Of a DNA stretch of 64,000 bases, positions 37,975-51,780 are shown in pieces (the first letter of the stretch is position 1; each line of letters opens with the position of its first letter). Made by a program: the position numbers and the translations under genes. The notes under the pieces were generated by a model. That model worked only from the letters and a program-made list of their open reading frames with translations. It ran no database searches and was not told where the DNA came from. The DNA is from a virus (Duplodnaviria > Caudoviricetes). The DNA is taken from positions 1 through 64,000 of the IMG/VR virus record IMGVR_UViG_3300021256_000056; one strand, 5' to 3'.

Positions 37975-38047
37975 CTTATTAGTGTTTACTAAAAGATAAA
38001 GGAGTTCGACAAAAAATCAATGCAATAATGAGATAAAATTACCTATG

Positions 38048-38136
38048 CGGAGGGTGGGAGATTCGAACTCCCGCGACCTTTAACAGCCCTACTGGTTTAG
38101 CAAACCAGCCCCTTCAGCCAGCTTGGGTAACCCTCC
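38048..38136 (-). tRNA. tRNA-Ser(GCT)
   Basis: cloverleaf, CTGGT-TTGCTAA-ACCAG, long variable arm. Confidence 0.92.
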
Positions 38137-38145
38137 GTTATTTTG

Positions 38146-38220
38146 AGCCCATGACTGGATTCGAACCAGTGAAAAATCGGTTTTGCAGACCGACCGTTTA
38201 GACCACTCGCGCACATGGGC
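38146..38220 (-). tRNA. tRNA-Cys(GCA)
   Basis: TCGGT-CTGCAAA-ACCGA. Confidence 0.92.
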
Positions 38221-38235
38221 ATAGTTTTTAATTTG

Positions 38236-38308
38236 AGCCGAGGACAGGAGTCGAACCTGCAACCCCCTGATTACAAGTCAGGTGCTCTACCATTAAAGCT
38301 ACCTCGGC
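38236..38308 (-). tRNA. tRNA-Thr(TGT)
   Basis: CCTGA-CTTGTAA-TCAGG. Confidence 0.92.
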
Positions 38309-38640
38309 AAAAACCTCGCGTATTTTTCGCCCCGCGAGGTGAGCTCCTTGCACGCCTATTTATATACCGTCCGCCAGAATTACGGTGGTGCCCCATTTTG
38401 GCGCCTTCGGGGCAATTGGGGGTTGGCCCTTCTGAAGAAAACGCTTTGCGAATATCCTCAATGGCGGCCAATACCATAAAAATAAGTCACAACATTGCAC
38501 CATCACGCCTTCCACGGTTGAATGTCGCACAGGTGGTTTCTATAATCTAATTTCAGCCGAAACTAGGCTTGCACCTGTGAAGTTTATCCGCGCTAACGTC
38601 TCCAGTTTATTAAGACTGGTGTGCTACTTGTGACTTTAAC

Positions 38641-38763
38641 AGAAAATCATTTAAAAGACTGGATTCGAACCAGCGTTTCCCCTGCTTTCCAGAGGCGTTC
38701 TGACCCCTAAACTACATGTCCGAAGTTTTGGTGGACACAGGTAAAACTTGCTGTTGGTTTTCT
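38641..38763 (-). ncRNA. ACAGCAA-helix RNA enclosing a permuted tRNA (acceptor 3' strand plus CCA first)
   Basis: AGAAAACC-AACAGCAA...TGTGTCCACCA-linker-GGACATG-D arm-stem-T arm...GATTTTCT. Confidence 0.7.
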
Positions 38764-38832
38764 TTATTTAAGAATATATCAAAATTGTCAAAAAATCAAT
38801 GAAAATGATAGATTTCTAATAAAGTGTCAAAA

Positions 38833-39321
38833 TTAAACTTTTAACCCGAATTTTTTGATTAAATAGCTCTTTTTTTCATCTTTGGGCATGGATACCATGT
38901 AAAGAAAATCATCACCGTGCTTATTGATATAAGCTTCTAATGTACAAATTGTTTTACAAGGAACGCCAGCAGCAACCGTATTGCTTGGTATGTCTCTGTT
39001 CACTACACTTCCCGCCCCAATAATGCTGTTATCTCCAATGGTTACTCCAGGTAAAATAACGCTCCTGCAGCCAATAAAACAATTTTTGCCAATTTTAATT
39101 GGAGCATATATTACCGTTTCTTTGTTTCCATTGGGTAAATTCCTGATAACCCTCGTAGCAGCATCGTGTGTCACAAAGGCGACATCAAAACTCACAGTTG
39201 TATTATCCCCAATCTCAATGAGATACGGCTCAGAGCCGAAATTGCATGTGCCCCCAAAACTAACGTTTTTACCAAGTCTTAAACCGTTGTTAACCGCTTC
39301 TTTTAAATTTGTTACATCCAT
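38833..39321 (-). CDS. hexapeptide-repeat sugar acetyltransferase
   Basis: FGSEPYLIEIGDN, IGKNCFIG, IIGAGSVV. Confidence 0.88.
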   Translation of the reverse strand: MDVTNLKEAVNNGLRLGKNVSFGGTCNFGSEPYLIEIGDNTTVSFDVAFVTHDAATRVIRNLPNGNKETVIYAPIKIGKNCFIGCRSVILPGVTIGDNSIIGAGSVVNRDIPSNTVAAGVPCKTICTLEAYINKHGDDFLYMVSMPKDEKKSYLIKKFGLKV

Positions 39322-39333
39322 AAATTATTGATT

Positions 39334-39409
39334 TGGAGCCCCATATTGGACTTGAACCAATAACCTCCTGATTACGAAACAGGTACTCTACCAATTGAGC
39401 TAATGGGGC
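39334..39409 (-). tRNA. tRNA-Thr(CGT)
   Basis: loop TTCGTAA; CCA encoded. Confidence 0.9.
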
Positions 39410-39414
39410 GAAAA

Positions 39415-40140
39415 CTATTCATCTTTGTCTTTTAGCGTTTTCTTTTTTCGATGAAACCTTTTACTATTCTTATTTAATGAGCCAAAGTTGGGGGTTAGGC
39501 TATGGCAATTAGGGCACAGTAGTTGCAAGTTTTCAATACGGTTATTTGTACAATCACCATCAATATGGTGAACTTCGAGAGGAACATTCCCCGTAAATTC
39601 GTTAACTTCGCCCCAGTGACATTTTTCGCATTTATTGTCGTGAAGGCTCATTAAGTATTCCTTAATAAACACTGGCACCTGTGAAGCTCCCCTCAAAAAA
39701 TTTTCTCCCCCTAGCCACCTTTCTAATTTGCTTATTTTTGGTGGGGTTTCATTTGTATATTCTTCGTATTCTCTTTCTGGAAACTTTGAACGTATGGAAT
39801 CTGAAATTTTTTTCTTGGTTTCAAAACTGCGTGGGCCACGTTTTACGTTATTATATTTCGCGGCACATGACGAGGAACAAAACTTATTGAATCTTTGTTC
39901 AAAACTCAATTTTCTCCCGCATTCTTCACAATACCTGGGATTTTTATCATATGTTTCCCTTGTTTGTTTGTTTTGATAATATTGTCCAGTAATATTCGCT
40001 TTCTGTTTTATCCTATTAATAAAACGCCAAGAAGCGCCATTGGGCCTCCTTCCAAAATAATTTATAACCTCTTTCTCGGAACAACATGCCTCGAACGCAG
40101 ATATTATTTCTTCAATAGAAATCTCTTCGACCTTTTTCAT
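39415..40140 (-). CDS. free-standing HNH homing endonuclease
   Basis: LEVHHIDGDCTNNRIENLQLLCPNCHS. Confidence 0.92.
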   Translation of the reverse strand: MKKVEEISIEEIISAFEACCSEKEVINYFGRRPNGASWRFINRIKQKANITGQYYQNKQTRETYDKNPRYCEECGRKLSFEQRFNKFCSSSCAAKYNNVKRGPRSFETKKKISDSIRSKFPEREYEEYTNETPPKISKLERWLGGENFLRGASQVPVFIKEYLMSLHDNKCEKCHWGEVNEFTGNVPLEVHHIDGDCTNNRIENLQLLCPNCHSLTPNFGSLNKNSKRFHRKKKTLKDKDE

Positions 40141-40203
40141 ACTCTTTTTTATAATAAATAGTATAAAAGGGTGAAAAAGTCAAGTCGAACCATTGTTTTT
40201 GTG

Positions 40204-40277
40204 GGTGAGTAGTCGGATTCGAACCGACGTAAACCACATCCACAGTGTGGCCCCTAAACCTCTCGGGCATACTCACC
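40204..40277 (-). tRNA. tRNA-His(GTG), G-1 genomically encoded
   Basis: CCACA-CTGTGGA-TGTGG; G-1:C73. Confidence 0.92.
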
Positions 40278-40418
40278 ATGTTTGCTGCATTAGTTATACG
40301 TATGCTGCCTGCAGCGAGCCCACGCATGGGTCCCTTATTCCGTTTCGCGGCTAACCCATGAACCGTCGTAGCATGTACCTGACTTCTGCTACGCTGTTCC
40401 TGTGCGTCAGGGTGGTTG

Positions 40419-40491
40419 AGCAGCGTAGCAGAATCGAACTGCCATCTCTAGCATGGCAAGCTAGTATAATCAACCATTATACGAACGCTGC
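40419..40491 (-). tRNA. tRNA-Gly(GCC)
   Basis: CTAGC-TTGCCAT-GCTAG. Confidence 0.9.
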
Positions 40492-40613
40492 AAATACTTC
40501 TTTTAGAACAACCCCAGAGAAGTTTAGAACTGTGCCGACCTACGATTCGGACGCTCATTTGACTTTCGTCAGGGAAGGCGCATCTTCGTTCCCGCCGCGG
40601 ACGGGCCAATAGA

Positions 40614-40889
40614 TTATTTAATTAATCGTTTCCGTTCTTCTTTGATAATCTCAAGTCCTGTTTCAATCTGTCTTAACCATTTCCCTTGTTCAGTAATTTT
40701 CGTCTCGGGAAGAGCATTCTTAAACTCGTTAAGGCTCTTTTCGGCATAATCACAGGACTCTTCGTCAAGTAAACTGTCCGCGCTAATTAAAGAAACATAA
40801 TAGAGGTTTAATAACCCAGTCTCGAACATTGTGTTGAGAAGAGTTATTATATCATTCCTAATTTCTTTTTCTGTTCTTTTCTTTTCCAT
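40614..40889 (-). CDS. hypothetical protein
   Basis: AT-rich ORF between tRNAs, start MEKKRTE. Confidence 0.6.
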   Translation of the reverse strand: MEKKRTEKEIRNDIITLLNTMFETGLLNLYYVSLISADSLLDEESCDYAEKSLNEFKNALPETKITEQGKWLRQIETGLEIIKEERKRLIK

Positions 40890-40891
40890 TG

Positions 40892-40963
40892 AGCGGGATA
40901 GCAGAATTGGACTGCCATCTTCAGCTTGGAAGGCTGACATAATAACCGTTATACGAATCCCGC
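40892..40963 (-). tRNA. tRNA-Gly(TCC)
   Basis: TCAGC-CTTCCAA-GCTGA. Confidence 0.88.
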
Positions 40964-40969
40964 AATTAG

Positions 40970-41042
40970 TTGTCGTTACCTGATTCGAACAGATATTTCC
41001 AGGTTCAGAGCCTGGCGTCCTCAACCGTTGGACGAAACGACA
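40970..41042 (-). tRNA. tRNA-Gln(CTG)
   Basis: CCAGG-CTCTGAA-CCTGG. Confidence 0.9.
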
Positions 41043-41422
41043 ATTTTAGTAATCCAAATCACTTCTGGGTGTTCTCCAAAAACCGTGTGTGTGACATTAC
41101 ATAGCCATACGGTTAAAATGGGGGCAGCGTCCTCAGAGACTACGGCATCCATTATCTCATTAAATAAATAGCCACTTAATGAATATGTTGCTCCATCATC
41201 ATCATGTTTAAGTCTCGTTAACTTCAATAAACACTGCTTCGGCTCATCAATATTTAGAATAAATCCCGATTCCATTTCAACTTCGAAAGAATCTTTTCCC
41301 TTCGAGAGCAGCTCACACATTTCATCGGCCCCTAAAACCATCTCATTATCTTCAAGACTATGCTCTGGAACGTCGGCATACCAACGCCCGTCTTGCTTGA
41401 AAAATTTGAGTTTCGTTTTCAT
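41021..41422 (-). CDS. conserved hypothetical protein
   Basis: WYAD.P...EMVLGAD...WLCNVTHTVFGEHP; ends inside tRNA-Gln. Confidence 0.7.
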   Translation of the reverse strand: MKTKLKFFKQDGRWYADVPEHSLEDNEMVLGADEMCELLSKGKDSFEVEMESGFILNIDEPKQCLLKLTRLKHDDDGATYSLSGYLFNEIMDAVVSEDAAPILTVWLCNVTHTVFGEHPEVIWITKIVVSSNG

Positions 41423-41426
41423 ATCG

Positions 41427-41502
41427 TCGAGTAGACAGGGCTCGAACCTGCATGAATCTCCACATCCCAAATGTGGCGAGGAACCAATTCCTCCACTACT
41501 CG
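41427..41502 (-). tRNA. tRNA-Pro(TGG)
   Basis: CCACA-TTTGGGA-TGTGG. Confidence 0.9.
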
Positions 41503-42101
41503 ATATGTGGACTCGATTTTTGGTTTTGTATAGCGGTACCAACTACTACGTATTCCACATGTTTTATCGTGCCAAGTCCTCACACGAACCGATATTTTAA
41601 GTGCTCGGTATGCAGTATCGTCCTTCCTGCTTCCATTACACTTTGCGCAACCGTTGGGCGTCGAACCCAAAGCCTTCTGTAGTACTTTCGCCATTAAGCT
41701 GTTAGCAAAAGCAGGTGGTATTGCACTCACCGCGACGGGAGCTACCCGTAATCCATTGTTCGGTTGCGTTTGCCAAGGAAGATGGATTCGAACCATCATT
41801 CACGCATTGTGTGATTGCGCCACCGCTTATTCCTTATTATTTACACACAAAGTAATATTCAGCGGAATCCCCTTGTGGATAGGGGCGGTTTGCCATTGTC
41901 CTACTCCTTGTTTAAATGCATTACCTGCCCTGACCTCTATATGCTTTTACATAATGTTTTGAATTCTTCAATTTTGAAGTTCTGCATTTTGATACAATGC
42001 CTGGGCGCTTCTTGTGAAGCCTTTGGGTTGCCGATGTTGCTCTGTTTGCCATTTTCTTAATTTTTCACAAATATACATTTATTTTTTATAAAAATCAATA
42101 G

Positions 42102-42216
42102 TCGGGGAAGAAGGAATCGAACCTCCGCTAACGGCACCCAAAGCAATTTGACGCTGCTGTTAGTTTTCAATACTGAAAACATTTAAAACGTCGTGCTACC
42201 ACTACACTATTCCCCA
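42102..42216 (-). tRNA. tRNA-Pro(TGG) interrupted by a 44-nt ACAGCAG-helix insert (42145-42188) at position 29/30
   Basis: removing the insert restores ACG|GC-TTTGGGT-GCCGT. Confidence 0.85.
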
Positions 42217-42223
42217 AAATTTG

Positions 42224-42340
42224 TGAGGAGGATGGGACTCGGACCCATGACCCACGGGTTAAAAGCCAAGGTGAGGTTGCTGTTAGTTTTCAGTACAGAA
42301 AACGTTTTATACGTTGCTCTACCAACTGAGCTACCTCCTC
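42224..42340 (-). tRNA. tRNA-Lys(TTT) interrupted by a 44-nt ACAGCAA-helix insert (42268-42311) at position 29/30
   Basis: removing the insert restores ACG|GG-CTTTTAA-CCCGT. Confidence 0.87.
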
Positions 42341-42347
42341 AAAATTG

Positions 42348-42393
42348 CGACGATAGGAGGAGTCGAACCTCCAATCATGCCAAATCTATCGTC
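42348..42393 (-). ncRNA. tRNA minihelix (acceptor stem and T arm only)
   Basis: GACGATA-14nt-GGAGG TTCGACT CCTCC-TATCGTC-G. Confidence 0.65.
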
Positions 42394-42428
42394 AACCGTC
42401 AACTTAAGACAACGTGTTACCACGTTTG

Positions 42429-42511
42429 TGGCCCCTGTGGGACTCGAACCCACACCCCATTGCTGGGAGTAGATTTTGAGTCTACCGCGTATACCATTCC
42501 GCCAAGGGGCC
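42429..42511 (-). tRNA. tRNA-Leu(CAA)
   Basis: GTAGA-CTCAAAA-TCTAC. Confidence 0.93.
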
Positions 42512-42615
42512 ATAAATAAAGAAGCCAGGCAACACTGCGACATTTTCAGAGTTTTTGTGACCACTTTGCTGGTACCCTACTTAAGTGGTTGCCCTACCAA
42601 CCTCGGGCTTCTTAG

Positions 42616-42689
42616 TACCCCCTGTAGGATTCGAACCTACGACCCGCAGATTAGAAATCTGCTGCTCTGTCCAACTGAGCTAAGAGGGC
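42616..42689 (-). tRNA. tRNA-Arg(TCT)
   Basis: GCAGA-TTTCTAA-TCTGC. Confidence 0.93.
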
Positions 42690-42694
42690 TTTTG

Positions 42695-42769
42695 TGCTCC
42701 TAGAAGGACTCAAACCTTCAACCTTATCCTTAGGACGGATTTGCGCTGATTCAATTGCGCCATAGGAGC
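42695..42769 (-). tRNA. tRNA-Arg(CCT)
   Basis: loop GTCCTAA. Confidence 0.85.
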
Positions 42770-42777
42770 ATTTGTTG

Positions 42778-42880
42778 CGGCAGTAAACCGAATCGAACGG
42801 CTATCAACCACCGACGGTGGTCATTCTTCGTGCGGGTTTCATTTAATTGCAGCTGCACAATACCCATTAAACTATACTGC
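42778..42880 (-). ncRNA. aberrant tRNA-like RNA
   Basis: GGCAGTA/TACTGCC acceptor and T arm; central region non-canonical. Confidence 0.55.
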
Positions 42881-42886
42881 CATTTG

Positions 42887-43010
42887 TTGCGGGTGAGGGA
42901 GTCGAACCCCCGTCTTTTCGTTATGGGTGAAATTACGATGTAAGTTGCCGCAAGATTTCCATGCGAAAACCTTTTTTGCTTTTACATGCTAACCATTGCA
43001 CTAACCCGCA
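42887..43010 (-). tRNA. tRNA-Met(CAT)-like with a variant helix insert (GCGGCAA) before the anticodon arm
   Basis: TGCGGGT/ACCCGCA; GGTTTTC-GCAT-GGAAATC-TTGCGGCAA; loop CCCATAA. Confidence 0.65.
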
Positions 43011-43018
43011 ATATTGTG

Positions 43019-43421
43019 TGGAGATGGGCGGACTCGAACCGCCGTTTTTCAAGCTTGCAAACTGCTTTCTACGCGCTTAGTTTTCTTTATGATTCGTTGG
43101 GCACTGGTGGAAAACACACCTGAGTACTCAATATATCATTCTGGAAACGTAGCCAAACCAGACGAATGAAACTGGCCTGCCGCTCTCGATTTGATGATGC
43201 CCTCATATTGTGAATTCAACCAAGACCAAACATTCACGAGGACAATCGTCCCGACACATCCTAGGTGCCGATGGATTAGGCTTATTTGCTTAGCAAATTA
43301 AGCGGCGATTGCATAGGTGTTGTTGCCAACTAATTTTTTTGATATTTGTTTAAAGGCTAAAAATCAAAACGCCTGCGTGCTTACAATCCTCATAGATTGA
43401 AATCAAAACCAAAACATCCCC
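43019..43421 (-). ncRNA. ssrA: tmRNA, tag (A)GNNTYAIAA
   Basis: 5' GGGGATG, 3' GGTTCGAGTCCGCCCATCTCCA with G3:U70; tag ORF GGC AAC AAC ACC TAT GCA ATC GCC GCT TAA. Confidence 0.95.
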
Positions 43422-43430
43422 ATGTTTTTG

Positions 43431-43503
43431 TACCCGATACAGGACTCAAACCCATACTCTGGGAGCCGTATTCCCAAGTTCTATTCAGTTAAACTAATCG
43501 GGC
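43431..43503 (-). tRNA. tRNA-Arg(ACG)
   Basis: TGGGA-ATACGGC-TCCCA. Confidence 0.85.
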
Positions 43504-43645
43504 TTTTTATTTTATTTTCATTTTCTCTATATTCCTTTTTTCTATATCTTCTTACCGAAGAATCATTCCTGCTTCCAAAATTTTCTGTCATTGCATGGCA
43601 ATTTGGACATAAAACTTCTATGTTTTCTTCTGTTACATTTGTTTA
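43494..43645 (-). pseudogene. HNH endonuclease C-terminal remnant
   Basis: translates TNVTEENIEVLCPNCHAMTENFGSRN; N-terminus missing. Confidence 0.8.
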
Positions 43646-43676
43646 TTAATAAATAATTAGATAAGAAAGATTTGAG

Positions 43677-43750
43677 AGCCCTCAGTCGGAGTCGAACCAA
43701 CACTTCATCCATACCACAGATGCGTACTCAGCCTTTAATACGATGAGGGC
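43677..43750 (-). tRNA. tRNA-Thr(GGT)
   Basis: CATCT-GTGGTAT-GGATG. Confidence 0.85.
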
Positions 43751-43855
43751 AAATCGCCAGGTGAAGCTAACCTGGCCCCCGTGAACTACCAGCCAGCCCT
43801 GCACCACGGGTGTTGATATGAGTACTGGTTGCATATCAACTTACAAGCTTACTTG

Positions 43856-43930
43856 TGCTCCCGATGGGACTCGAACCCATAACCCACTGTTTAAGAGACA
43901 GTTGCGCTCAACCAATTGCGCCACGAGAGC
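43856..43930 (-). tRNA. tRNA-Lys(CTT)
   Basis: ACTGT-CTCTTAA-ACAGT. Confidence 0.93.
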
Positions 43931-43940
43931 AGTTATTATG

Positions 43941-44012
43941 TAGCGGATAGGAGAGTCGAACTCCTCTCTCAAGATTGAGAATCTTACGTCCTAACCGATA
44001 GACTAATCCGCC
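43941..44012 (-). tRNA. tRNA-Glu(CTC)
   Basis: loop TTCTCAA; near-duplicate of Glu(TTC) at 47243. Confidence 0.9.
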
Positions 44013-44214
44013 ATTATCATATTACACAATGTTACATGTTTTATAAAAAATAAAGCATTGCGGATTTCCGTAGTCACCGCAATCGTTCTCCTCCTGCTAC
44101 CGTATACGACAGGCTAAGGCGAACTATAAGAACTTACCTATATTCGAACCTTTTCCTCTTAATCCACTTTATAAGAGTATGCTATAGGGTTCCCCACCTT
44201 GGTACTTTGATTTG

Positions 44215-44371
44215 TCGCGCATCTTGGAATCGAACCAAGTTCCTCTGGGGTTAGCAGCCCAGCGAGTTTTGTGTCTCCGCAGACTTGCAATCTACAATTA
44301 AGCGTCGTTGCAACTCAACTTAATCTGAATGTAGTATCCGCTTCTGTGCGTCTCCAACACTCTCATACGCG
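44215..44371 (-). ncRNA. initiator-like tRNA body with ~80-nt D-loop insertion and 8-nt anticodon loop
   Basis: CGCGTAT/ATGCGCG; CTGGG-CTGCTAAC-CCCAG; T arm intact. Confidence 0.6.
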
Positions 44372-44505
44372 GACAAGGCAGCGTGTATGCATCACCTTCT
44401 GACCTTGTAGAACGGACTTATATACATACCGTAACATTTTCGTAGTATGTAATTTCATCTGTTTTGTGTCTCCGACGAGGCTCGAACTCGTGACCCCCAC
44501 ATTAA

Positions 44506-45341
44506 CCTACCCAATATAGTTGCCTATACCATCTTACGATGTTTGAGTTTGGACCATTTCTTATCCATGCCACTTCGTGGTTTAGGTGGTGGTGTATGGC
44601 CTCTACACATTTATGCAAAAAAGCAATTTAGCCCGACGTTTTCCCAGGGGGATGTTCGTCGAATTAGCCACCATTCACGACAAGGGTTTCCCCTCGTGTG
44701 CTCCTTTCTTAGATTCACGTAAACATGAAATGCATAACCCGCTTTTAGTTTCCCTATGAAGCGGTTTTCCACATTTTTTGCACACGTGTTTGTACGTGTG
44801 GGTGTGTGTGGTTGTTTTAACCCCCTTCATATTTTTCTTTCCAGCGTAACTATCTGTTTGTGAATGGCAATTAGGACACAAAATCACTAGATTGTCGAGT
44901 TCATTATTAAAATGGTCTCCATCTTTATGATGAACTTGCAACGTTATGCTTTTACCATGCCACTCAGAAATTCCGCATTCTGGATTTTCGCACTTATATT
45001 CTTTCAGCCCCAATGAAATTAGTTTTTTCATTAATTCCGAAGATTTTATAAGTTTGTCTTTAACAAAAAAATCCTCTTTGTCTAGACCGTTGTGATTTTT
45101 ATTTCCGATGTTCGATTTTTGTCCAGTGAAATGTGAGGTATCTAGGTCGTATTCTTTCACGTATTTGTAAAACGTTCTATAATTACCACCAACAGGTTTC
45201 CATCCCACAGCACGACAAAAATCAGCAACACTAAAAACACGTTTACATATCTCTATTGCCTCTTCTTTACCAATTACATTTTTTGTCATAATAACACTTT
45301 TATAATAAATAGTGTTTAATTGGTAAAAGTAAGAAGATTTG
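44506..45341 (-). mobile_element. group I intron (IC3-like) with HNH ORF
   Basis: P/Q/R/S-like AATTCGACGAA, GTCGGGCTAA, GTGTAGAGGCC, AAGAAATGGTCC; terminal G after GGTAG. Confidence 0.85.
44675..45289 (-). CDS. intron-encoded HNH homing endonuclease
   Basis: LQVHHKDGDHFNNELDNLVILCPNCHS. Confidence 0.92.
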   Translation of the reverse strand: MTKNVIGKEEAIEICKRVFSVADFCRAVGWKPVGGNYRTFYKYVKEYDLDTSHFTGQKSNIGNKNHNGLDKEDFFVKDKLIKSSELMKKLISLGLKEYKCENPECGISEWHGKSITLQVHHKDGDHFNNELDNLVILCPNCHSQTDSYAGKKNMKGVKTTTHTHTYKHVCKKCGKPLHRETKSGLCISCLRESKKGAHEGKPLS

Positions 45342-45399
45342 AAGTGTGGTGCTCTACCAACTGAGCTACGGAGACTTTCCTTAAATTACCATAAAATTG

Positions 45400-45475
45400 T
45401 TGCGCAGGACGGGCTCGAACCGACGACTTCCAGGATATGAATCTGGTGCTCTACAACCAACTGAGCTACTGCGCA
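45400..45475 (-). tRNA. tRNA-Met(CAT)
   Basis: loop TTCATAT. Confidence 0.85.
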
Positions 45476-45483
45476 ATATTTTG

Positions 45484-45556
45484 CGGAGACGGGCGGAGTC
45501 GAACCACCGACGCGGGGCTCTTCAGGCCCCCGCTCTACCAACTGAGCTACGTCTCC
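45484..45556 (-). tRNA. tRNA-Phe(GAA)
   Basis: GGGGC-CTGAAGA-GCCCC. Confidence 0.93.
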
Positions 45557-45662
45557 AAAAAAAAGGTAAAATCTTCGAAGATTGCTGCAGCGGAAGTCCC
45601 CGAGTCGAACGGTGGTTACCTGGTGCCCCTTGCATACAATACTGCAACAAATTTTACCTTTG

Positions 45663-45738
45663 TGGGTGTCCTGAGACTCGAACTCAGAAACCTCTTGTGT
45701 ATCAGACAAGTGCTCTCAACCAATTGAGCTAGGCACCC
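45663..45738 (-). tRNA. tRNA-Ile(GAT)
   Basis: CTTGT-CTGATAC-ACAAG. Confidence 0.92.
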
Positions 45739-45748
45739 AGAAATTTTG

Positions 45749-46466
45749 TGGGACAGGAGGGACTCGAACCCTCACCCTCCTTAGAGGACTGGTTCCTCGT
45801 ACCACTATGGCTTTCGCCACCAAAACAACTTCGAACTTGCGGGTTGGATTTTCAAGGCTTGTACACCCCCAGGTTGTCTTGTTTGTGGTCTGGACTGTAT
45901 CTTAACCATATTGAAATCTAGCTAGTAAACATCCTTATACTTATAGTCTCGTAGTTTAATGTGGGTCACGCGACCACCCCTAGCTCATATAAGCATGTTA
46001 TTTCAACTTAGGCTCCTCCTGTATCTCGTCTCTACACACTGTCTATTATTCTATATCTGCGGTCCCTTGTTCTCAGGCTATATTCATTACTGAAGTATAG
46101 TCTTGCAGTATAGATTTTAACATTGGCTCGGCATTAGCATATTATTCCTATTGGGGTTTTACAAGTTTCGCTTATAGTTTTATTCCGATATTCACGGTGT
46201 CCCACAAAACCAATATTTGAATAACTTAGCTTTCACCGAATTAGGAAGGTTCTACATAACGGGTTTCCCCGCGTCCACAGGCTACTCTCCCGTTTGGGAT
46301 TGTTTACCTTATCTATCACGCTTCGCAGCGTCCTGTGGTATGCACTCAAGTTAAACGGGCGCCTATCCGCATACAGAGTGTCTCAGTCTGTAATCTCCAA
46401 GTATAGGTTATCAGTATAAGCCCGTTGTTCATAAGACCAGCGCGTCTACCATTCCGCCACTGTCCC
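45749..46466 (-). tRNA. tRNA-Leu(TAG) split by a group I intron
   Basis: exons CTGGT-CTT | AGGA-ACCAG. Confidence 0.9.
45798..46432 (-). mobile_element. group I intron (IC3-like), no recognisable ORF
   Basis: AATTCGGTGAA, AATGCCGAGCC, GTGTAGAGACG, AAGATACAGTCC; ends GGTACG. Confidence 0.9.
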
Positions 46467-46605
46467 AAAATTAGATAAGGGTGTATAATGCTGCCCTTGC
46501 TATATTGTGTGGCAACCCTTAAATGAGATTTTCCAAATACCTTTGTCTGCCATATTCTCAGGTGCTCATTACTGTAGCATTGATTATGTATATGAAGGTT
46601 ACCAC

Positions 46606-46691
46606 TGGTGCGGCAGGTGAGACTCGAACTCACACGGGATTGCTCCCACCACCCCCTCAAAGTGGCGCGTCTACCATTCCGCCACTGCCGC
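46606..46691 (-). tRNA. tRNA-Leu(GAG)
   Basis: CCACT-TTGAGGG-GGTGG; CCA encoded. Confidence 0.92.
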
Positions 46692-46857
46692 ATAAATATA
46701 TTGTTTTTAAATGGCCCTGGAATCTGTATTGACCACTAAGGGGGTAATCCTCCATCTACAGAATCTGTACCATCAGGTTTATCCCATTGGTTCCCTAAGA
46801 CCCATTCTTTTTCTCGGTGCGTGGTGACACCTCAAACCGTGAATATATACCTAGTTG

Positions 46858-46930
46858 TGGAGGATACGAGACTCGGACTCGTGACCCCCTGCTTGCAAAG
46901 CAGGTGCTCTACCGACTGAGCTAATCCCCC
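46858..46930 (-). tRNA. tRNA-Ala(TGC)
   Basis: CCTGC-TTTGCAA-GCAGG; G3:U70. Confidence 0.93.
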
Positions 46931-47242
46931 TTCATGGTCCTCTTTTAATCGCTATTCATTTAGGGAGCAGGAAGGACCAGTCCTATGACGTGTTAGCCTC
47001 AAACGCCATTCTAAGAGGTTCCTCAAAAATGCACTGCAGTATATGGTGTCCACCATTGCCCCTAATCGCCACCGCTTTCGGAGGGGTTTTGATACCATAG
47101 CATCATCGGAGAAATAAACGGGTTACTTAGTTATCGCTTGGCGCATAGACGCCTCAAACTTGCCTGTTGGCCACCCTTCGTGAGGTACAGAATAACTTAC
47201 TGTTTCTATGCCTTCAGTTACTGCCTCACCCTCACCCGTTCG

Positions 47243-47314
47243 TAGCGGATAGGAGAGTCGGACTCCTCTCTCAAGAATGAAAATCTTGCGTCCTAACCGA
47301 TAGACTAATCCGCC
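47243..47314 (-). tRNA. tRNA-Glu(TTC)
   Basis: CAAGA-TTTTCAT-TCTTG. Confidence 0.9.
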
Positions 47315-47321
47315 ATAAATT

Positions 47322-47452
47322 AAGAGCATAACGGTGTTTCGAACCACCGTTAATTGTTACCAGCGTGCGTTTCCTCTAATACACCAACCGAGTTTATTGT
47401 TTGCTCTGGGACCGTGGCCTTTAGTCCATTATCGAGCCCTCTGGTATCTCTT
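47322..47452 (-). ncRNA. unknown ~135-nt tRNA-trailer RNA, copy 1
   Basis: AAGAGA-TACCAG...GCACG-CTGGTA-ACAA-T-loop hairpin-CTCTT. Confidence 0.65.
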
Positions 47453-47453
47453 G

Positions 47454-47519
47454 TGCGTAAACATGGAGTCGAACCACGTTATTTCTAGGATTGCATTGCC
47501 TCTATATGCTATTTTACGC
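47454..47519 (-). ncRNA. tRNA-like RNA lacking a paired anticodon arm
   Basis: GCGTAAA/TTTACGC acceptor; D and T arms present. Confidence 0.6.
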
Positions 47520-47523
47520 AAAT

Positions 47524-47664
47524 AAGAGCATTATGAAGTCTCGAGCCTTCATAAATTGTTACTTAGCGTGCTCGTCCATCTTTACACTATTCCCGTTAAG
47601 AGTCCTTCCTTTTCACGTTGCCTAGAACTTTTCCGAAAAGAGAACTCACCTCTAAGTATCTCTT
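47524..47664 (-). ncRNA. unknown ~135-nt tRNA-trailer RNA, copy 2
   Basis: AAGAGA-TACTTAG...GCACG-CTAAGTA-ACAA-hairpin-CTCTT. Confidence 0.65.
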
Positions 47665-47665
47665 G

Positions 47666-47748
47666 TGGGCAGGGAGGGATTCGAACCCCCGAAGCCGTGA
47701 GGCAGCAGATTTACAGTCTGCCCGTTTTGACCGCTTACCTACCTACCC
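47666..47748 (-). tRNA. tRNA-Tyr(GTA)
   Basis: GCAGA-CTGTAAA-TCTGC, long variable arm. Confidence 0.92.
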
Positions 47749-47880
47749 ATAAAAAAACTTAAGCCACTCGCGTCCCACAGGTCTGTTCTCGCTTTTATTA
47801 AGAGGTGCACACGAGATTACTCTCCCTCCTTTAAAGTAAGTCGCCCTCCTAAGCCTTGTCCGCTTAAGTTAAAAAACAAC

Positions 47881-47947
47881 GGGAAACATTTTTACGTATG
47901 TTCAGAAAGAAAGTCGGAATTTTAGTAAATTTTGCTGTTAGTTTCCC
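47881..47947 (-). ncRNA. ACAGCAA-helix RNA with Glu(TTC)-like loop
   Basis: GGGAAAC-TAACAGCAA...TTCCGA-CTTTCTT-TCTGAA...GTTTCCC. Confidence 0.7.
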
Positions 47948-47952
47948 TTTAG

Positions 47953-48074
47953 AGCTGATGCAAGGAATCGAACCTCGGTCTGCGGCTTGGAATGCATTTC
48001 TTGATTTTTGCTGTCCGTAACCTTGTCAGAATACCTTATTTGAAAACGCTGTGCTACCACTACACCACATCAGC
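47953..48074 (-). tRNA. tRNA-Gly(TCC) interrupted by a 51-nt ACAGCAA insert (47996-48046) at position 29/30
   Basis: removing the insert restores GCG|GC-ATTCCAA-GCCGC. Confidence 0.83.
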
Positions 48075-48254
48075 TTATATTAAAATCTCCTGTTTGCCTC
48101 GGGTGGACGCGTCGGGCTGAATCCGCCCATCACCCTTAACACCTCGCCATTATGCTATGGCTTTATTCCATACTGCATAAAGGTTTTCCTACCACGTGGG
48201 TCACATAATGTCAACCTGATTGTTGGTTATGTAGCTCCCTCAGAGATAATAAAT

Positions 48255-48332
48255 TGGCGGTGCGTACGGGATTCGAACCCGTGAACTCCACCGTGACAGG
48301 GTGGCATGATAGACCAGCTTCACCAACGCACC
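48255..48332 (-). tRNA. tRNA-Asp(GTC)
   Basis: CCACC-CTGTCAC-GGTGG; CCA encoded. Confidence 0.94.
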
Positions 48333-49020
48333 GTATGCTTTTTCGGTTTAACATTAACCGTATTACTGGCGGTTTTGGTATCGCACTTTTCCGCCTTAGT
48401 GCGTCCGAATTTCACGGAAGCCTTACTATCGCGAATAATGTACTTAAGGCTACTACCAAGGTGACTTGTGGAGCAGCCCTTCGCGATTATGATGCCACAA
48501 TGCACTTGGTTTATAATTTAAGGTTACCTAAAGTAGATGTGCCTTGGATTCGCACCTCTCACGGAGACTTTTTACACCAAAACCACTATAGTCAATTTTG
48601 GATATTAAGTTACTCAGCCTTTGACCCGATATACCATTTCACACCACTGCAGCTGGCGGCGATTTTGTACCTGGCCATACTCATTGTCACTTTAGTTTTT
48701 CGCGCTCGGGCTCCCTGCCCGTGTTGGCGTTGCAACCTCTGACTACTCTCACGGTTAAAACTGTGGGGGGTTCTTGGGAGCAAACACAAAGTGCTTTGGG
48801 AAGCATAGCCTATTGGCTTACTTTAACTCCACACAGGGGTAGTCCTCCCCTGTCCCAAATACATGTTTAGCCCTTGGTTTTCAGGCTTGTATTCTCGTTT
48901 TTTCGAGGTAAATTCGCCCCTTTTTGGTACCCAACGCATTGGAGAGTCGAACTCCGCTGCTTGCATATTCGAAAACACGCCCAAGGGGACCCTACTACCG
49001 TTCGGGATTACTGCTAAATT

Positions 49021-49156
49021 AAGAGCCATAGCATATTCGAATTCCGCTATGTTGTTACCGAATGTGCGAACGTCTCTTGCATTTCACACCGCTGCTAATC
49101 GTACTCCATTGCTATACGCGTAATAGCAACTTAAGGAGCCCTTTCCAGTATCTCTT
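49021..49156 (-). ncRNA. unknown ~135-nt tRNA-trailer RNA, copy 3
   Basis: AAGAGA-TACTGG...GCACAT-TCGGTA-ACAA-TTCGAAT hairpin-CTCTT. Confidence 0.6.
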
Positions 49157-49157
49157 G

Positions 49158-49232
49158 TGGGAGTGGAGGGATTCGAACCCCCGACATCTACCTTGTAAGG
49201 GTAGCGCTCTAAACCAGCTGAGCTACGCTCCC
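49158..49232 (-). tRNA. tRNA-Val(TAC)
   Basis: CTACC-CTTACAA-GGTAG. Confidence 0.93.
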
Positions 49233-49564
49233 GTTTCTCACCTAAGACTAACGCGCTAATCTGTCATTCGCAATGCACTAGGTGTATAACTTTTTTTATA
49301 CGTGCAGTTCTAACCCCCTTCGTGACCCCTCAGTGCTACTATAGTCGCCCTATATTTGGATTACTGACGATACCCTACACCTACTCATCACGCCATTTAA
49401 CCGTGGCTCTCTCGCATTGTTCCAATCTACGAGAGGCCCCCCCACGGTGAGGCCGTTAGTCGGATTTGACTTGAGCAAGAAGTCTGAATTGAACAGCAAG
49501 TTCCGTCCTTACGTAGCGAACAAGGGACGGACGTCTCCCGAACCTGGGTATCTTGCTAAAAAAT

Positions 49565-49716
49565 GTGTAACCAGAAATCAGAAATGTTTTACTCTACCTA
49601 CTGAGCTACATGGGAAGAATACCGTAACTCCCACGGAGGGACTCGAACCCTCGTCCTTAGTTTTACAGACTTACAAACAATTAATGAACTTGCTGTAAGA
49701 TTTCTTCACGTTACAC
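49565..49716 (-). ncRNA. ACAGCAA-helix RNA enclosing a circularly permuted tRNA-Tyr(GTA)-like module
   Basis: order: helix, ACAGCAA, CTGTAAA loop, T arm, acceptor hairpin, D arm, helix. Confidence 0.8.
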
Positions 49717-49732
49717 GGTGATGGTATTTTTG

Positions 49733-49806
49733 CGGGAAGAGAGGGGCTCGAACCCTCGACCTAAGGATTAACAGTCCTTTGCTACCACCAGCTGAGCTAC
49801 CTTCCC
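49733..49806 (-). tRNA. tRNA-Asn(GTT)
   Basis: AAGGA-CTGTTAA-TCCTT; G73. Confidence 0.9.
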
Positions 49807-50123
49807 GAAATTACAGGCACGTAAACGAAATGCCCTCAGACTTCCCAATGGTTTATAGATTAAAGACCTAAAACCATTATGCGGCTCCTTCACACCTACG
49901 AAAAACAGTCTTTGTCAACTACCACGTGTTATAGTATTGTAGGCAAGTTATTCTAACGTCAAACTGCCATGACGATGGTTGCTATTACGCCACACCAAAA
50001 ATAGCGGGTCTGTTTACTAAACAAGAAATTGACCGCAGGTTGGATTTACACCAACTTACTCCCAGTAAAATCCAGGGCTTCAAATTACAAAAGCCTCGCA
50101 CGGTTGATTCCTTGTAGAAATAC

Positions 50124-50235
50124 GGGAAGCGTTTTACGTCCAACGGACGGGGGCGGACTTGAACCGCCGAACCTCTCAAGTTCTGATTTTCAGTCGGAAT
50201 TGTTAAACCTTTGTTGAGATTGCTGTGTGCTTCCC
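50124..50235 (-). ncRNA. ACAGCAA-helix RNA with Phe(GAA) loop, T arm and closed acceptor-like hairpin
   Basis: GGGAAGC-ACACAGCAA...CTGAAAA...GGCGG TTCAAGT CCGCC...CGTCC-GTT-GGACG...GCTTCCC. Confidence 0.78.
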
Positions 50236-50240
50236 TGTTG

Positions 50241-50325
50241 CAGGCGCTGGAGGATTCGAACCCCCGAGGAATTTAATCCTGCTGGTTTTGGAGACCAGTG
50301 CCTTCGACCGCTCGGCCAAGCGTCT
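50241..50325 (-). tRNA. tRNA-Trp(CCA) with long variable arm
   Basis: CTGGT-CTCCAAA-ACCAG; A1:U72, G73; 16-nt variable region. Confidence 0.85.
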
Positions 50326-51028
50326 GTATATATTCCATTAATCCTTTTTTATCGAATGGTAGTCCGTAATGCTTAAACCATTTTCTTATAGCATTATCCG
50401 ACACTCCAAAAGACTTTCCGACTTGTAAAAAACTTCTTTTAACTAAAAAAAGATTAATTAAAGTTTCTTTTGATGGGTGATTTCTTTCCCATGCGCATTC
50501 TCGCGCTTCTATCCAATCTTCTTTGTTTGTGTGTCTTTTCTTTACTATGGTTTTAGTAGTGGATTCGTATTTATTTGAATTTTTTCCTGCATAAGTATCC
50601 GTTTGTGAATGACAATTTGGGCATAATAACATGAGATTTTCAATCCTATTATCGTCATGTATACCATTGATATGGTGGAGTTGTAATGATATCGGTTTAC
50701 CATTCCATTCGCAAATTCCACATTGTGGATTCTCACACTTATTTTCTTTTAAGCCACACTCAATTAGTCTTTTTTTTAGCCGACTTTTGTTTGTGTATAA
50801 ACTATGTTCAACTAGAATGTCATCCATGGGAATTTTTTCTCTGTAGCTTTTTGTCATTCGTTTATAAGAGAATCTTAATTCCAGCCCGAGTTCCTTTGCA
50901 AGCGCCCTTACCTCTTTATAATCTTCCCCGCCAACGTTTTCTATTCCGAGTCTATGACAAAGGTCCAACATATTAACACATTTGTCGTAATTTTCAATTA
51001 ACCTGTCTATCGCGTATTCTCGATTCAT
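50273..51028 (-). CDS. free-standing HNH homing endonuclease with C-terminal HTH
   Basis: LQLHHINGIHDDNRIENLMLLCPNCHS; FGVSDNAIRKW; ORF runs into tRNA-Trp. Confidence 0.92.
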   Translation of the reverse strand: MNREYAIDRLIENYDKCVNMLDLCHRLGIENVGGEDYKEVRALAKELGLELRFSYKRMTKSYREKIPMDDILVEHSLYTNKSRLKKRLIECGLKENKCENPQCGICEWNGKPISLQLHHINGIHDDNRIENLMLLCPNCHSQTDTYAGKNSNKYESTTKTIVKKRHTNKEDWIEARECAWERNHPSKETLINLFLVKRSFLQVGKSFGVSDNAIRKWFKHYGLPFDKKGLMEYIQTLGRAVEGTGLQNQQD

Positions 51029-51216
51029 AATATTCTTTTTATTATAAATAGTATGAAAAGAGAAAAATCGAACCTTTTTGGAAATTTTTATTTAGTTCGA
51101 ATATATAATGAAAAATGAATTTTCCTCTAAGGGGAGTAGTCTAACTCCCCAGTGTGTTTTATGACCTTTTCAGCAAACCAATGTAAAAACCCAATAACTA
51201 TGGTTGTAAAAATTTC

Positions 51217-51281
51217 GGAAATCTGTTTTTCAGAATATTAGATTAAAAGTCTAGTCCTTGATAAATTGCTGTAAGATTTCC
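51217..51281 (-). ncRNA. ACAGCAA-helix RNA with Lys(TTT) anticodon stem-loop
   Basis: GGAAATCT-TACAGCAA...TAGA-CTTTTAA-TCTA...AGATTTCC. Confidence 0.8.
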
Positions 51282-51283
51282 TC

Positions 51284-51374: not shown

Positions 51375-51383
51375 ATTAAATTT

Positions 51384-51778: not shown

Positions 51779-51780
51779 TG

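What the first reader, a model, noticed from the sequence alone, without database searches (positions are those of the whole stretch)
38641..38763. Second permuted tRNA that presents the CCA end instead of an anticodon
Seen: ACAGCAA is followed by the acceptor 3' strand TGTGTCC-A-CCA, a 7-nt linker, then GGACATG, D arm, a stem with non-anticodon loop GGAAAGC, and a T arm. The break lies between the T arm and the acceptor strand. Inference: the same module may present a different tRNA target site, such as bait for toxins acting on the acceptor stem or CCA end.
Basis: partly seen in the sequence, partly recalled or inferred. Interest (0 to 1): 0.72.

Follow-up and report, generated by a model that had tools for sequence, protein, structure and literature searches.

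The report
Handle-clamped, rotated tRNA look-alike RNA
This 123-base stretch of a giant phage is a real small-RNA gene: a non-decoding tRNA look-alike written in rotated order, with its CCA end sealed in a loop and the whole body clamped by a conserved "handle", a build also found in other phages and probably a new relative of the tRNA-mimicking Y RNAs.

Summary
A 7-position clamp helix (one C.A mismatch) and the motif ACAGCAA enclose, in order: the acceptor 3' strand, A-CCA, a 7-nt linker, the acceptor 5' strand, a D arm, a capped stub in place of the anticodon arm, and a T arm. No 3' acceptor strand lies downstream. The same permutation, at tRNA positions 65/66, occurs in five other lineages from four other contigs. 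Their stems differ by compensatory changes: 4 of 7 acceptor pairs change on both sides.

N-CCA follows the acceptor strand in 4 of 6 lineages, one of them found by a CCA-biased search. It follows none of 7 T-arm-first siblings.

My reading is that this is one of at least 8 clamp-type "ACAGCAA-handle" RNAs in this phage's tRNA array, built from the junction of two tandem tRNA genes. It is a tRNA mimic, not a tRNA. RNase P probably opens the loop to expose CCA, as shown for M. smegmatis YrlA; this step is inferred.

The proposed Ro60-like (DUF2828) partner is absent from the 195 kb held, which is about 53% of the genome. The toxin-bait idea is untested. This scan has noted the handle family, and one similar acceptor-side permutation, on other DNA before.

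The parts
38757..38763 (-). Clamp helix, 5' strand (AGAAAAC)
   Evidence: Pairs with 38641-38647 at 6 of 7 positions, with a C.A mismatch at the inner pair. The seven other clamp-type copies in the window have perfect, covarying 7-bp clamps at the same place.
38748..38756 (-). Two spacer bases (CA) plus the invariant ACAGCAA motif
   Evidence: ACAGCA(A/G) preceded by a purine-rich clamp strand recurs 11 times on this strand between 38 and 56 kb. It is also invariant in the five homologous lineages.
38740..38747 (-). 5' linker. TTTA at 38742-38745 can pair with TAAA at 38650-38653 (helix 2).
   Evidence: Read directly from the sequence. An equivalent 4-5 bp A/U helix next to the clamp can be drawn in L269 and L272. 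This is weak, inferred evidence.
38733..38739 (-). Acceptor stem, 3' strand (TGTGTCC)
   Evidence: Pairs 7 of 7 with 38715-38721 (5 Watson-Crick pairs, 2 G.U). It is the only full partner within -300/+650 nt. 4 of 7 pairs change on both sides across homologues.
38722..38732 (-). Acceptor-closing loop: discriminator A, CCA, then a 7-nt leader-like linker AAACTTC
   Evidence: Sequence. The loops of L269 and L426 are identical at 9 of 11 positions each. The string ACCAANANTTC followed by GG is a common junction between tandem tRNA genes in metagenomes.
38715..38721 (-). Acceptor stem, 5' strand (GGACATG); putative RNase P site between 38722 and 38721
   Evidence: The pairing is as given for the 3' strand. 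The RNase P site is inferred from M. smegmatis YrlA (PMC4201824).
38697..38714 (-). U8-A9 and the D arm (GTTT / AGGGGTCA / GAAC)
   Evidence: Matched by the Rfam tRNA model. The pair at positions 11:24 changes U-A to C-G in homologues. A14, G18-G19 and A21 are present.
38679..38696 (-). G26 and a capped stub replacing the anticodon arm (5-bp stem, loop GGAAAGC)
   Evidence: Position 33 is G, not U. 3 of 5 stem pairs change on both sides.
38658..38678 (-). Variable region AAAC and the T arm (GCTGG / TTCGAAT / CCAGT)
   Evidence: Matched by the Rfam tRNA model. C48 can form the 15:48 pair with G15, and three homologues have A15 with U48.
38648..38657 (-). 3' linker from the T stem to the clamp
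   Evidence: Sequence. It contains the TAAA partner of helix 2.
38641..38647 (-). Clamp helix, 3' strand (ATTTTCT)

Best explanation
This is a small non-coding RNA gene of the phage's 'clamp helix + ACAGCAA handle' family. Its cargo is an almost complete tRNA body: a 7-bp acceptor stem, a D arm, a capped stub instead of an anticodon arm, and a T arm. The body is joined to the handle at the T-stem/acceptor junction (tRNA positions 65/66).

It most likely arose from the junction of two tandem copies of a tRNA gene: the 3' end with CCA, the spacer, then the next 5' end. It cannot decode. It folds as an L-shaped tRNA mimic that offers the elbow and the acceptor end.

The next step is inferred. The 7-bp acceptor hairpin followed by A-CCA and a leader-like loop is cut by host RNase P 5' of G1 (between 38722 and 38721) and trimmed back to CCA. 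That gives a two-strand molecule held together by the acceptor stem, helix 2 and the clamp: about 35 nt carrying ACAGCAA and ending in CCA, plus about 81 nt of tRNA body.

The handle would dock the RNA to a protein, with a Ro60-shaped DUF2828 protein as the candidate. The tRNA-like part would then recruit or titrate a factor that binds the acceptor end or elbow, in the manner of Y RNAs.
For: Structure:
- All tRNA elements except a terminal acceptor stem are present.
- The permuted acceptor hairpin is unlikely by chance: P = 0.011, or 0.00014 with N-CCA.

Family:
- There are 8 clamp-type copies in the window with covarying clamps and an invariant ACAGCAA.

Conservation:
- The same order of parts is found in L269/L367, L426, L453, L272 and L129.
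- On the 5-sequence model alignment, 89.5% of cells are paired against 33-53% for slid partners.
- 9 pairs change on both sides, 4 of them in the 7-pair acceptor helix.
- The 15:48 pair switches from G:C to A:U.

CCA:
- N-CCA lies straight after the acceptor strand in 4 of 6 lineages. One is L453, whose loop otherwise differs in length and sequence.

Origin: the loop string is a common tandem-tRNA junction.

Precedent:
- M. smegmatis YrlA has a 7-bp loop-closed acceptor stem.
- It is cut by RNase P in vitro and in vivo and gains CCA, and both halves stay with Rsr (PMC4201824; bioRxiv 10.1101/312249).
Against: - There is no expression or end-mapping data, so RNase P cutting is inference only. 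The handle leaves the helix stack at 65/66, inside the acceptor/T stack that RNase P measures.
- Two lineages with the same permutation lack CCA (L272, L129). CCA may therefore be a fossil of the tandem-tRNA origin.
- L426 was found with a pattern that required ACCAA.
- Only 4-6 lineages are known. The covariation alignment was fitted to the model structure.
- The clamp of this copy has a mismatch.
- Pfam models for TROVE, DUF2828, RtcB and the CCA-adding enzyme (PolyA_pol) find nothing in the 195 kb held. A DUF2828-like protein from relative G006 also finds nothing there.
- In 13 related giant phages, no convincing handle lies within 4 kb of the DUF2828-like gene.
- The minimum-free-energy fold of the single sequence is not exceptional (z = -0.83).
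Confidence: 0.5

Rival explanations
1. Sealed mimic. It is the same handle-family tRNA look-alike, but the acceptor loop stays closed, as in most YrlA RNAs. The CCA and the leader-like loop are then a fossil of the tandem-tRNA junction, or a protein contact, and not a processing site.
For: - Most YrlA RNAs are thought to keep loop-closed acceptor stems (10.1101/312249).
- L272 and L129 have the same permutation without CCA.
- The T-arm-first siblings have short sealed loops.
- The handle exits within the acceptor/T stack, which might hinder RNase P.
Against: - The stem has the full 7 bp that Chen et al. name as the determinant of RNase P cutting.
- N-CCA is kept in L453 although the rest of its loop has changed.
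- The loop looks exactly like spacers that cells process between tandem tRNAs.
Confidence: 0.3
2. Decoy or bait. The RNA mimics the acceptor end of tRNA to soak up a host defence toxin that modifies or cleaves the acceptor stem or CCA end. This would protect real tRNAs.
For: - It sits in a phage array of about 40 tRNA genes. Sibling handle RNAs there display bare anticodon stem-loops (Ile GAU and Lys UUU types), as a set of decoys might.
- This copy keeps the acceptor and elbow but discards the anticodon loop.
Against: - No toxin, target or cleavage site is identified.
- A sealed CCA cannot serve enzymes that need a free 3' end unless the loop is opened.
- The idea is compatible with, and not distinguishable from, a Y-RNA-like tether on present data.
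Confidence: 0.12
3. Decayed relic. A tandem tRNA duplication suffered two deletions, leaving a non-functional pseudogene that looks permuted by accident.
For: - Adjacent tRNAs can imitate the pattern. In L272, a tRNA-Leu 3' end followed by tRNA-Ile scored 28-33 bits on my models.
- This copy's clamp has a mismatch.
- There is no counterpart next to the neighbouring hexapeptide-transferase gene in relatives.
Against: - Both deletion end points would have to fall exactly at 65/66 and next to a handle.
- The same architecture recurs on four other contigs, with compensatory changes and preserved tertiary-pair nucleotides.
Confidence: 0.05
4. True permuted tRNA gene. The transcript is circularised or ligated and re-cut to give a working, decoding tRNA, as in red-algal permuted tRNA genes.
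For: The acceptor ends are joined by a short linker containing CCA, as in permuted tRNA genes (my knowledge of Soma et al. 2007, not checked here).
Against: - The 'anticodon' loop has G33, and in four of five homologous lineages it is a 4-6-nt cap.
- The outer T-stem pairs are lost in homologues.
- No RtcB is encoded in the DNA held.
- The handle is conserved, as expected of a functional part and not of a discarded one.
Confidence: 0.03

Closest known systems
YrlA-type bacterial and phage Y RNAs bound by Ro60/Rsr (Rfam RF02553; Chen et al. 2014, PMC4201824; Wang et al., bioRxiv 10.1101/312249)
   Same: - It is a circularly permuted, non-decoding tRNA mimic with D/T elbow nucleotides and a loop-closed acceptor stem.
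- It is mounted on a terminal helix that is thought to bind a protein.
- It is encoded among tRNA genes.
- Like M. smegmatis YrlA, it has a full 7-bp acceptor stem, which in that RNA is opened by RNase P and given CCA.
   Different: - The break is at 65/66 (order: acceptor, D, capped anticodon stub, T). In YrlA the break is in the anticodon stem (order: T, acceptor, D).
- The terminal module is a 7-bp clamp plus single-stranded ACAGCAA, not the YrlA Ro-binding helix.
- RF02553 does not match this element at E <= 10.
- No TROVE gene is found in the DNA held.
- CCA is already encoded.
The phage's own ACAGCAA-handle RNAs, including the YrlA-like sibling at 49573-49705
   Same: Same clamp, same spacer, same ACAGCAA, same strand and same array.
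   Different: - The siblings carry bare anticodon stem-loops, or a T-arm-first tRNA body, or sit as a hairpin inside tRNA anticodon stems.
- Only this copy is attached at 65/66 and carries N-CCA.
Permuted tRNA genes of Cyanidioschyzon merolae and some archaea (from memory: Soma et al. 2007; Chan et al. 2011)
   Same: The 3' part lies upstream of the 5' part, and the acceptor ends are joined by a short linker.
   Different: Those genes yield decoding tRNAs through a circular intermediate made by the splicing endonuclease. Here there is no usable anticodon loop, the host is bacterial, and the flanks form a conserved handle.
Two-piece tmRNA from permuted ssrA genes (from memory: Keiler et al. 2000)
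   Same: In the gene, a CCA-ending acceptor strand comes first, then a processed loop, then the 5' acceptor strand. The product is two base-paired RNAs.
   Different: There is no tag reading frame and there are no pseudoknots. The T arm lies in the downstream piece. The phage has a standard one-piece tmRNA at 43018-43421.
Dictyostelium Class I RNAs (Rfam RF01414; Kjellin et al. 2021, PMC7919456)
   Same: A short stem joins the 5' and 3' ends, a conserved unpaired motif follows the 5' strand, and the rest of the RNA is variable.
   Different: RF01414 does not match this copy. Its best match in the genome is a short sibling at 51231-51280, with 23.3 bits against a gathering score of 41.5. Those RNAs are eukaryotic, 42-65 nt long and carry no tRNA-like cargo.

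Membership tests
tRNA (Rfam RF00005) | Score at or above the gathering score of 29 bits over the whole model | tested here: not met
   28.2 bits, covering model positions 5-66 only. ARAGORN does not call it.
tRNA (Rfam RF00005) | Acceptor stem formed by the 5' end and a 3' strand that follows the T arm | tested here: not met
   There is no 7/7 partner within 650 nt downstream. The only full partner lies 18 nt upstream.
tRNA (Rfam RF00005) | 7-nt anticodon loop with U33 | tested here: not met
   The loop GGAAAGC has G at position 33.
tRNA (Rfam RF00005) | D and T arms with the elbow nucleotides (U8, A14, G18-G19, T54-psi55-C56, A58, 15:48 pair) | tested here: met
   All are readable. The 15:48 pair covaries, G:C against A:U.
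YrlA Y RNA (Rfam RF02553) | Match to the covariance model (gathering score 69 bits) | tested here: not met
   No match at E <= 10 over 38200-38900. The sibling at 49561-49677 scores 31.4 bits.
YrlA Y RNA (Rfam RF02553) | Order T arm, loop-closed acceptor, D arm, with the RNA ends leaving through the anticodon stem | tested here: not met
   The order here is acceptor hairpin, D arm, capped anticodon stub, T arm. The ends leave at 65/66.
YrlA Y RNA (Rfam RF02553) | Encoded near an rsr (TROVE) gene | tested here: inconclusive
   PF05731 finds nothing in the 195-kb record, but the record is estimated to be 53% complete.
ACAGCAA-handle RNAs (no published description found; defined by the copies in this window) | 7-bp clamp joining the two ends of the RNA | tested here: met
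   6 of 7 pairs, with a C.A mismatch at the inner pair. The seven other copies have 7 of 7 pairs with covariation.
ACAGCAA-handle RNAs (no published description found; defined by the copies in this window) | One to three spacer bases, then ACAGCAA, directly after the clamp 5' strand | tested here: met
   CA plus ACAGCAA at 38756-38748.
ACAGCAA-handle RNAs (no published description found; defined by the copies in this window) | Co-occurrence with a Ro60-shaped DUF2828 protein gene (claimed in earlier notes of this scan) | tested here: inconclusive
   - PF11443 is absent from the 195 kb held, and the G006 protein finds nothing there.
- A DUF2828+DUF7788 protein exists in related giant phages, but no handle lies within 4 kb of it.
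- The short-handle model hits 4 of 5 genomes that carry the protein and 0 of 2 tested without it. Only 150 candidates per genome were scored.
Permuted tRNA genes (Cyanidioschyzon type) | 3' part upstream of the 5' part, with acceptor ends joined by a short linker | tested here: met
   The acceptor 3' strand, A-CCA, the 7-nt linker and the acceptor 5' strand follow one another.
Permuted tRNA genes (Cyanidioschyzon type) | Product is a decoding tRNA with a functional anticodon loop | tested here: not met
   The anticodon arm is a capped stub here and in four of five homologous lineages.
Permuted tRNA genes (Cyanidioschyzon type) | Bulge-helix-bulge motif at the transcript ends and a circular intermediate | not testable with these tools
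   This needs RNA end mapping. The flanks form the clamp/ACAGCAA handle instead.
Two-piece tmRNA | Tag reading frame and pseudoknots between the acceptor pieces | tested here: not met
   ARAGORN and Rfam report only the one-piece tmRNA at 43016-43421. The element is 123 nt long and has no such parts.
Dictyostelium Class I RNA (RF01414) | Match to the covariance model (gathering score 41.5 bits) | tested here: not met
   No match to this copy. The best match in the genome is 23.3 bits, at a sibling.

The most novel reading that the evidence does not exclude
RNase P opens the RNA into a two-strand, handle-clamped tRNA body with a free A-CCA end and no anticodon. This phage-made molecule could be recognised, and perhaps aminoacylated or modified, at its 3' end. 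It would then tie acceptor-end enzymes such as synthetases, EF-Tu, the CCA-adding enzyme or acceptor-directed defence toxins to a Ro60-like particle. That would be a new class of chargeable or decoy tRNA mimic, and a living example of how Y-like RNAs are made from two adjoining tRNA genes.
Probability: 0.15. Interest if true: 0.85.

Novelty: new variant of a known kind. Interest (0 to 1): 0.62.

Why it matters
tRNA mimicry by Y RNAs is known in one topology only, YrlA, where the break is in the anticodon stem. This element shows a second, conserved way of mounting a whole tRNA body on a protein-docking handle. It keeps the acceptor stem, the discriminator and CCA, and discards the anticodon.

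If RNase P opens the loop, phages make handle-tagged RNAs with a real tRNA 3' end. That would make it directly testable which acceptor-end factor, enzyme or defence toxin these particles engage.

The element also records its own origin, a tandem tRNA junction. That bears on the long-standing proposal that Y RNAs evolved from tRNAs.

In practice, such genes are missed by tRNA finders and by Rfam, and they should not be annotated as tRNA pseudogenes.

Tried and rejected
- **Split tRNA.** I asked whether the tRNA is split by an insertion, with its 3' acceptor strand after the 332-nt gap. No 7/7 partner exists within 650 nt downstream.
- **Outer stem.** My first idea was pairing between AACAG(C)AAG and the downstream TTTTCTGTT. 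I dropped it in favour of the family-wide clamp register.
- **Similarity searches.** BLAST of 38300-38860 against 50,697 phage records found no match. BLAST-type and single-sequence model searches of the relatives G001, G002 and G004-G008 found no homologue. The downstream flank of the neighbouring hexapeptide-transferase gene in relatives L009-L013 holds no counterpart.
- **Pattern scans.** Most hits were chance hits upstream of normal tRNAs. No member of this type was found among the first 100, and the last 20 were not examined.
- **False positives of my models.** Tandem tRNA pairs can score well, for example L272 7450-7540, a tRNA-Leu 3' end followed by tRNA-Ile. The broader model R2 scores ordinary tRNAs at 30-42 bits, so only hits inspected by eye were accepted.
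- **Origin within the phage.** No close paralogue exists. The best match is a 17-nt identical T arm with tRNA-Cys at 38145-38220.
- **Promoter.** The sigma-70 scan reports no promoter on the minus strand. A TTGACA lies at about 38784-38789, with only a weak -10-like box at non-standard spacing.
- **Partner genes.** TROVE, DUF2828, RtcB and the CCA-adding enzyme were not found in the record held.
- I repeated the analysis from the stored loci.

Full report
**Setting.** The window is the first 64 kb of a 195-kb IMG/VR virus record, estimated to be 53% complete. Between 38 and 57 kb the minus strand carries 35 ARAGORN tRNA genes, a one-piece tmRNA, further intron- or insert-bearing tRNAs, and a YrlA-like RNA. 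The finding lies at the downstream end of this array. It sits between a hexapeptide-repeat transferase gene (38833-39321) and a 332-nt non-coding gap that precedes tRNA-Thr.

**The observation.** On the minus strand the parts run in this order:
- clamp strand AGAAAAC, 38763-38757
- CA
- ACAGCAA, 38754-38748
- an 8-nt linker
- TGTGTCC, 38739-38733
- A, then CCA at 38731-38729
- AAACTTC
- GGACATG, 38721-38715
- TA
- a D arm
- G
- a 5-bp stem capped by GGAAAGC
- AAAC
- a T arm with a TTCGAAT loop, 38674-38658
- a 10-nt linker
- clamp strand ATTTTCT, 38647-38641

The Rfam tRNA model aligns positions 5-66 to 38655-38717 at 28.2 bits, just under its threshold. It finds no acceptor partner. The upstream heptamer is the only complete partner of GGACATG within 300 nt upstream and 650 nt downstream, so this is not a tRNA split by an insertion. 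Simulation gives P = 0.011 for such a hairpin and P = 0.00014 for one followed by N-CCA. Only 4 of the phage's 35 tRNA genes encode CCA.

**It belongs to a family within the genome.** ACAGCA(A/G) preceded by a purine-rich strand recurs 11 times on this strand.
- In eight copies, that strand pairs with a complementary heptamer 35-110 nt downstream, and the two enclose a cargo.
- Seven of these clamps are perfect, and they covary: GGAAAAC/GTTTTCC, GGAAATC/GATTTCC, GGGAAGC/GCTTCCC, AGGAAAC/GTTTCCT.
- The present copy has 6 of 7 pairs.
- Other cargos are anticodon stem-loops (Ile GAU type, Lys UUU type).
- The cargo at 49573-49705 is a T-arm-first tRNA body that scores 31.4 bits on the YrlA model.
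- In three further tRNA-like genes, the same helix plus ACAGCA(A/G) sits as a hairpin inside the anticodon stem.

A note from this scan drew my attention to the family. I re-derived every feature used here.

**Homologues with the same permutation point.** Relatives found through the neighbouring protein lack the element. Pattern scans that did not require CCA found two elements with the same architecture, L269:3037-3165 and L272:1805-1933. A CCA-containing pattern added L426:7-126 and L367, a near-copy of L269. A model search of whole records added L453, a second copy on the contig of L269. A structural parse of all loci held added L129, which keeps a real Ile anticodon loop. All of them lie in phage tRNA arrays.

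On the five sequences aligned to the model (window, L269, L367, L426, L453; four lineages):
- 89.5% of cells form standard pairs, against 33-53% when the partners are slid.
- 9 pairs change on both sides, 4 of them among the 7 acceptor pairs.
- The D stem and the capped stem also covary (a 4-sequence version is).

My manual parse gives 31 of 35 acceptor cells paired over five lineages. The 15:48 tertiary pair switches from G:C (window) to A:U (L269, L426, L453).

There are caveats. The lineages are few, and the alignment was fitted to the structure.

**What is kept and what is lost.**
- Kept: the handle, a 6-7-bp acceptor hairpin, U8-A9, the D arm with GG, the T loop, and the inner three T-stem pairs.
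- Lost: the anticodon loop. It is replaced by 4-6-nt caps in four of five homologous lineages, and the window, L269 and L426 share a G-N-A-A core. The outer two T-stem pairs next to the break are also lost.

The selection is thus on the L-shape, elbow and acceptor end, not on decoding.

**The CCA.**
- N-CCA follows the acceptor strand in the window, in L269/L367, in L426 (found by a biased search) and in L453. L453 has G-CCA in a 16-nt loop that is otherwise unrelated.
- N-CCA is absent from L272 and L129.
- It is absent from all 7 T-arm-first handle RNAs in my loci, whose loops are mostly short.
- The loop string ACCAANANTTC followed by GG is a frequent junction between tandem tRNA genes in metagenomes.

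The simplest origin is therefore a tandem tRNA pair from which one junction-spanning unit was retained.

**Mechanism.** Shown: the fold-level anatomy, family membership and conservation. Everything else is inferred.

Chen et al. 2014 showed that M. smegmatis YrlA, the one YrlA with a 7-bp loop-closed acceptor stem, is cut by RNase P in vitro and in vivo. The upstream half then acquires CCA, and both halves co-purify with Rsr. They attribute the lack of cutting in other YrlAs to shorter stems (restated).

The present RNA has 7 bp, G1, discriminator A, an encoded CCA and a spacer-like loop. I therefore think opening by RNase P and trimming to CCA is about as likely as not. The product would be a strand of about 35 nt (handle strand, ACAGCAA, acceptor 3' strand, CCA) annealed to a strand of about 81 nt (tRNA body, clamp strand). 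By analogy with Y RNAs, the handle would bind a protein, and the tRNA-like part would engage a factor that binds the elbow or acceptor end.

**The protein partner.** Earlier notes of this scan link the handle to a Ro60-shaped DUF2828 protein. I could not confirm this for this genome.
- TROVE and DUF2828 models find nothing in the 195 kb held.
- A DUF2828+DUF7788/vWA protein from a 409-kb relative finds nothing there either.
- In 13 related giant phages, no convincing handle lies within 4 kb of that gene.
- At genome level, a short-handle model hits 4 of 5 genomes that have the protein and 0 of 2 tested without it. Scoring was truncated.

This is weakly consistent with the link, not proof of it. 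I found no paper on DUF2828 and RNA, nor on permuted tRNA-like genes in phages. Iyer et al. 2021 note only that some jumbo phages carry TROVE proteins, which work with a tRNA-like partner.

**Comparison with known families.** The element works most like YrlA but fails its membership tests: model score, order of parts, and type of terminal helix. It is not a tRNA, not a Cyanidioschyzon-type permuted tRNA gene (no anticodon), not a two-piece tmRNA, and not matched by the Dictyostelium Class I model. That model touches only a short sibling, at 23.3 bits.

**Verdict.** This is a real, conserved, rare topological variant of an apparently undescribed handle-RNA family. The structural claim is strong. 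The origin from a tandem tRNA junction is plausible. The processing, partner and function remain inferred. The toxin-bait idea is possible but unsupported.

Noticed in passing
window 49500-49510 and 49686-49696 (minus strand): In the YrlA-like sibling, ACAGCAAGTTC has a perfect 11-nt reverse complement about 175 nt downstream, outside the 3' clamp strand. It could sequester the handle motif or form an alternative long stem.
   Followed up: partly
window 38309-38640 (minus strand): A 332-nt GC-richer non-coding gap lies between this element and tRNA-Thr. Its predicted fold is -103 kcal/mol (z = -1.8), with a long-range closing stem. It ends in a terminator-like hairpin plus a T run directly abutting the tRNA. 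No Rfam match was found, and no similar DNA in any locus held.
   Followed up: partly
window 38047-56978, tRNA 3' flanks: Only 4 of 35 tRNA genes encode CCA. Most are followed by discriminator + CAA(A), so the phage's tRNAs depend on a CCA-adding enzyme. None was found in the 195 kb held.
   Followed up: partly
L426:7-126 (minus strand): The acceptor stem of this homologue reads G1-C72, G2-C71, G3.U70, G4-C69 with discriminator A and CCA. This is the classical alanine identity set shared by tRNA-Ala and tmRNA. The window's copy has A3-U70 instead.
   Followed up: no
L129 (contig of 76 kb), handle RNA of 111 nt: It has the same 65/66 permutation, but with an authentic 7-nt Ile (GAU) anticodon loop and a short UCUCA acceptor loop without CCA. 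It looks like an intermediate form between anticodon-displaying and acceptor-displaying cargos.
   Followed up: partly
L481 (Ruminococcus sp. UBA3855 MAG), 130-nt handle RNA: A clamp + ACAGCAA handle encloses a whole tRNA-Leu-like body in normal order. Its ACCA 3' end runs straight into the 3' clamp strand. This is a third way of attaching a tRNA body to the handle, and it occurs in a bacterial assembly.
   Followed up: no
G010 (contig of L269 and L453, 33 kb): This small contig carries two 65/66-type elements with different acceptor stems, plus five short-handle matches. The first element sits 15 nt upstream of a CTA-anticodon (amber suppressor type) tRNA. The window also has such a tRNA at 54154-54226.
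   Followed up: partly
window 38145-38220 and 38658-38674: The T arm of the element (17 nt) is identical to that of the nearby tRNA-Cys. This is the only notable similarity to any of the phage's own tRNAs.
   Followed up: no
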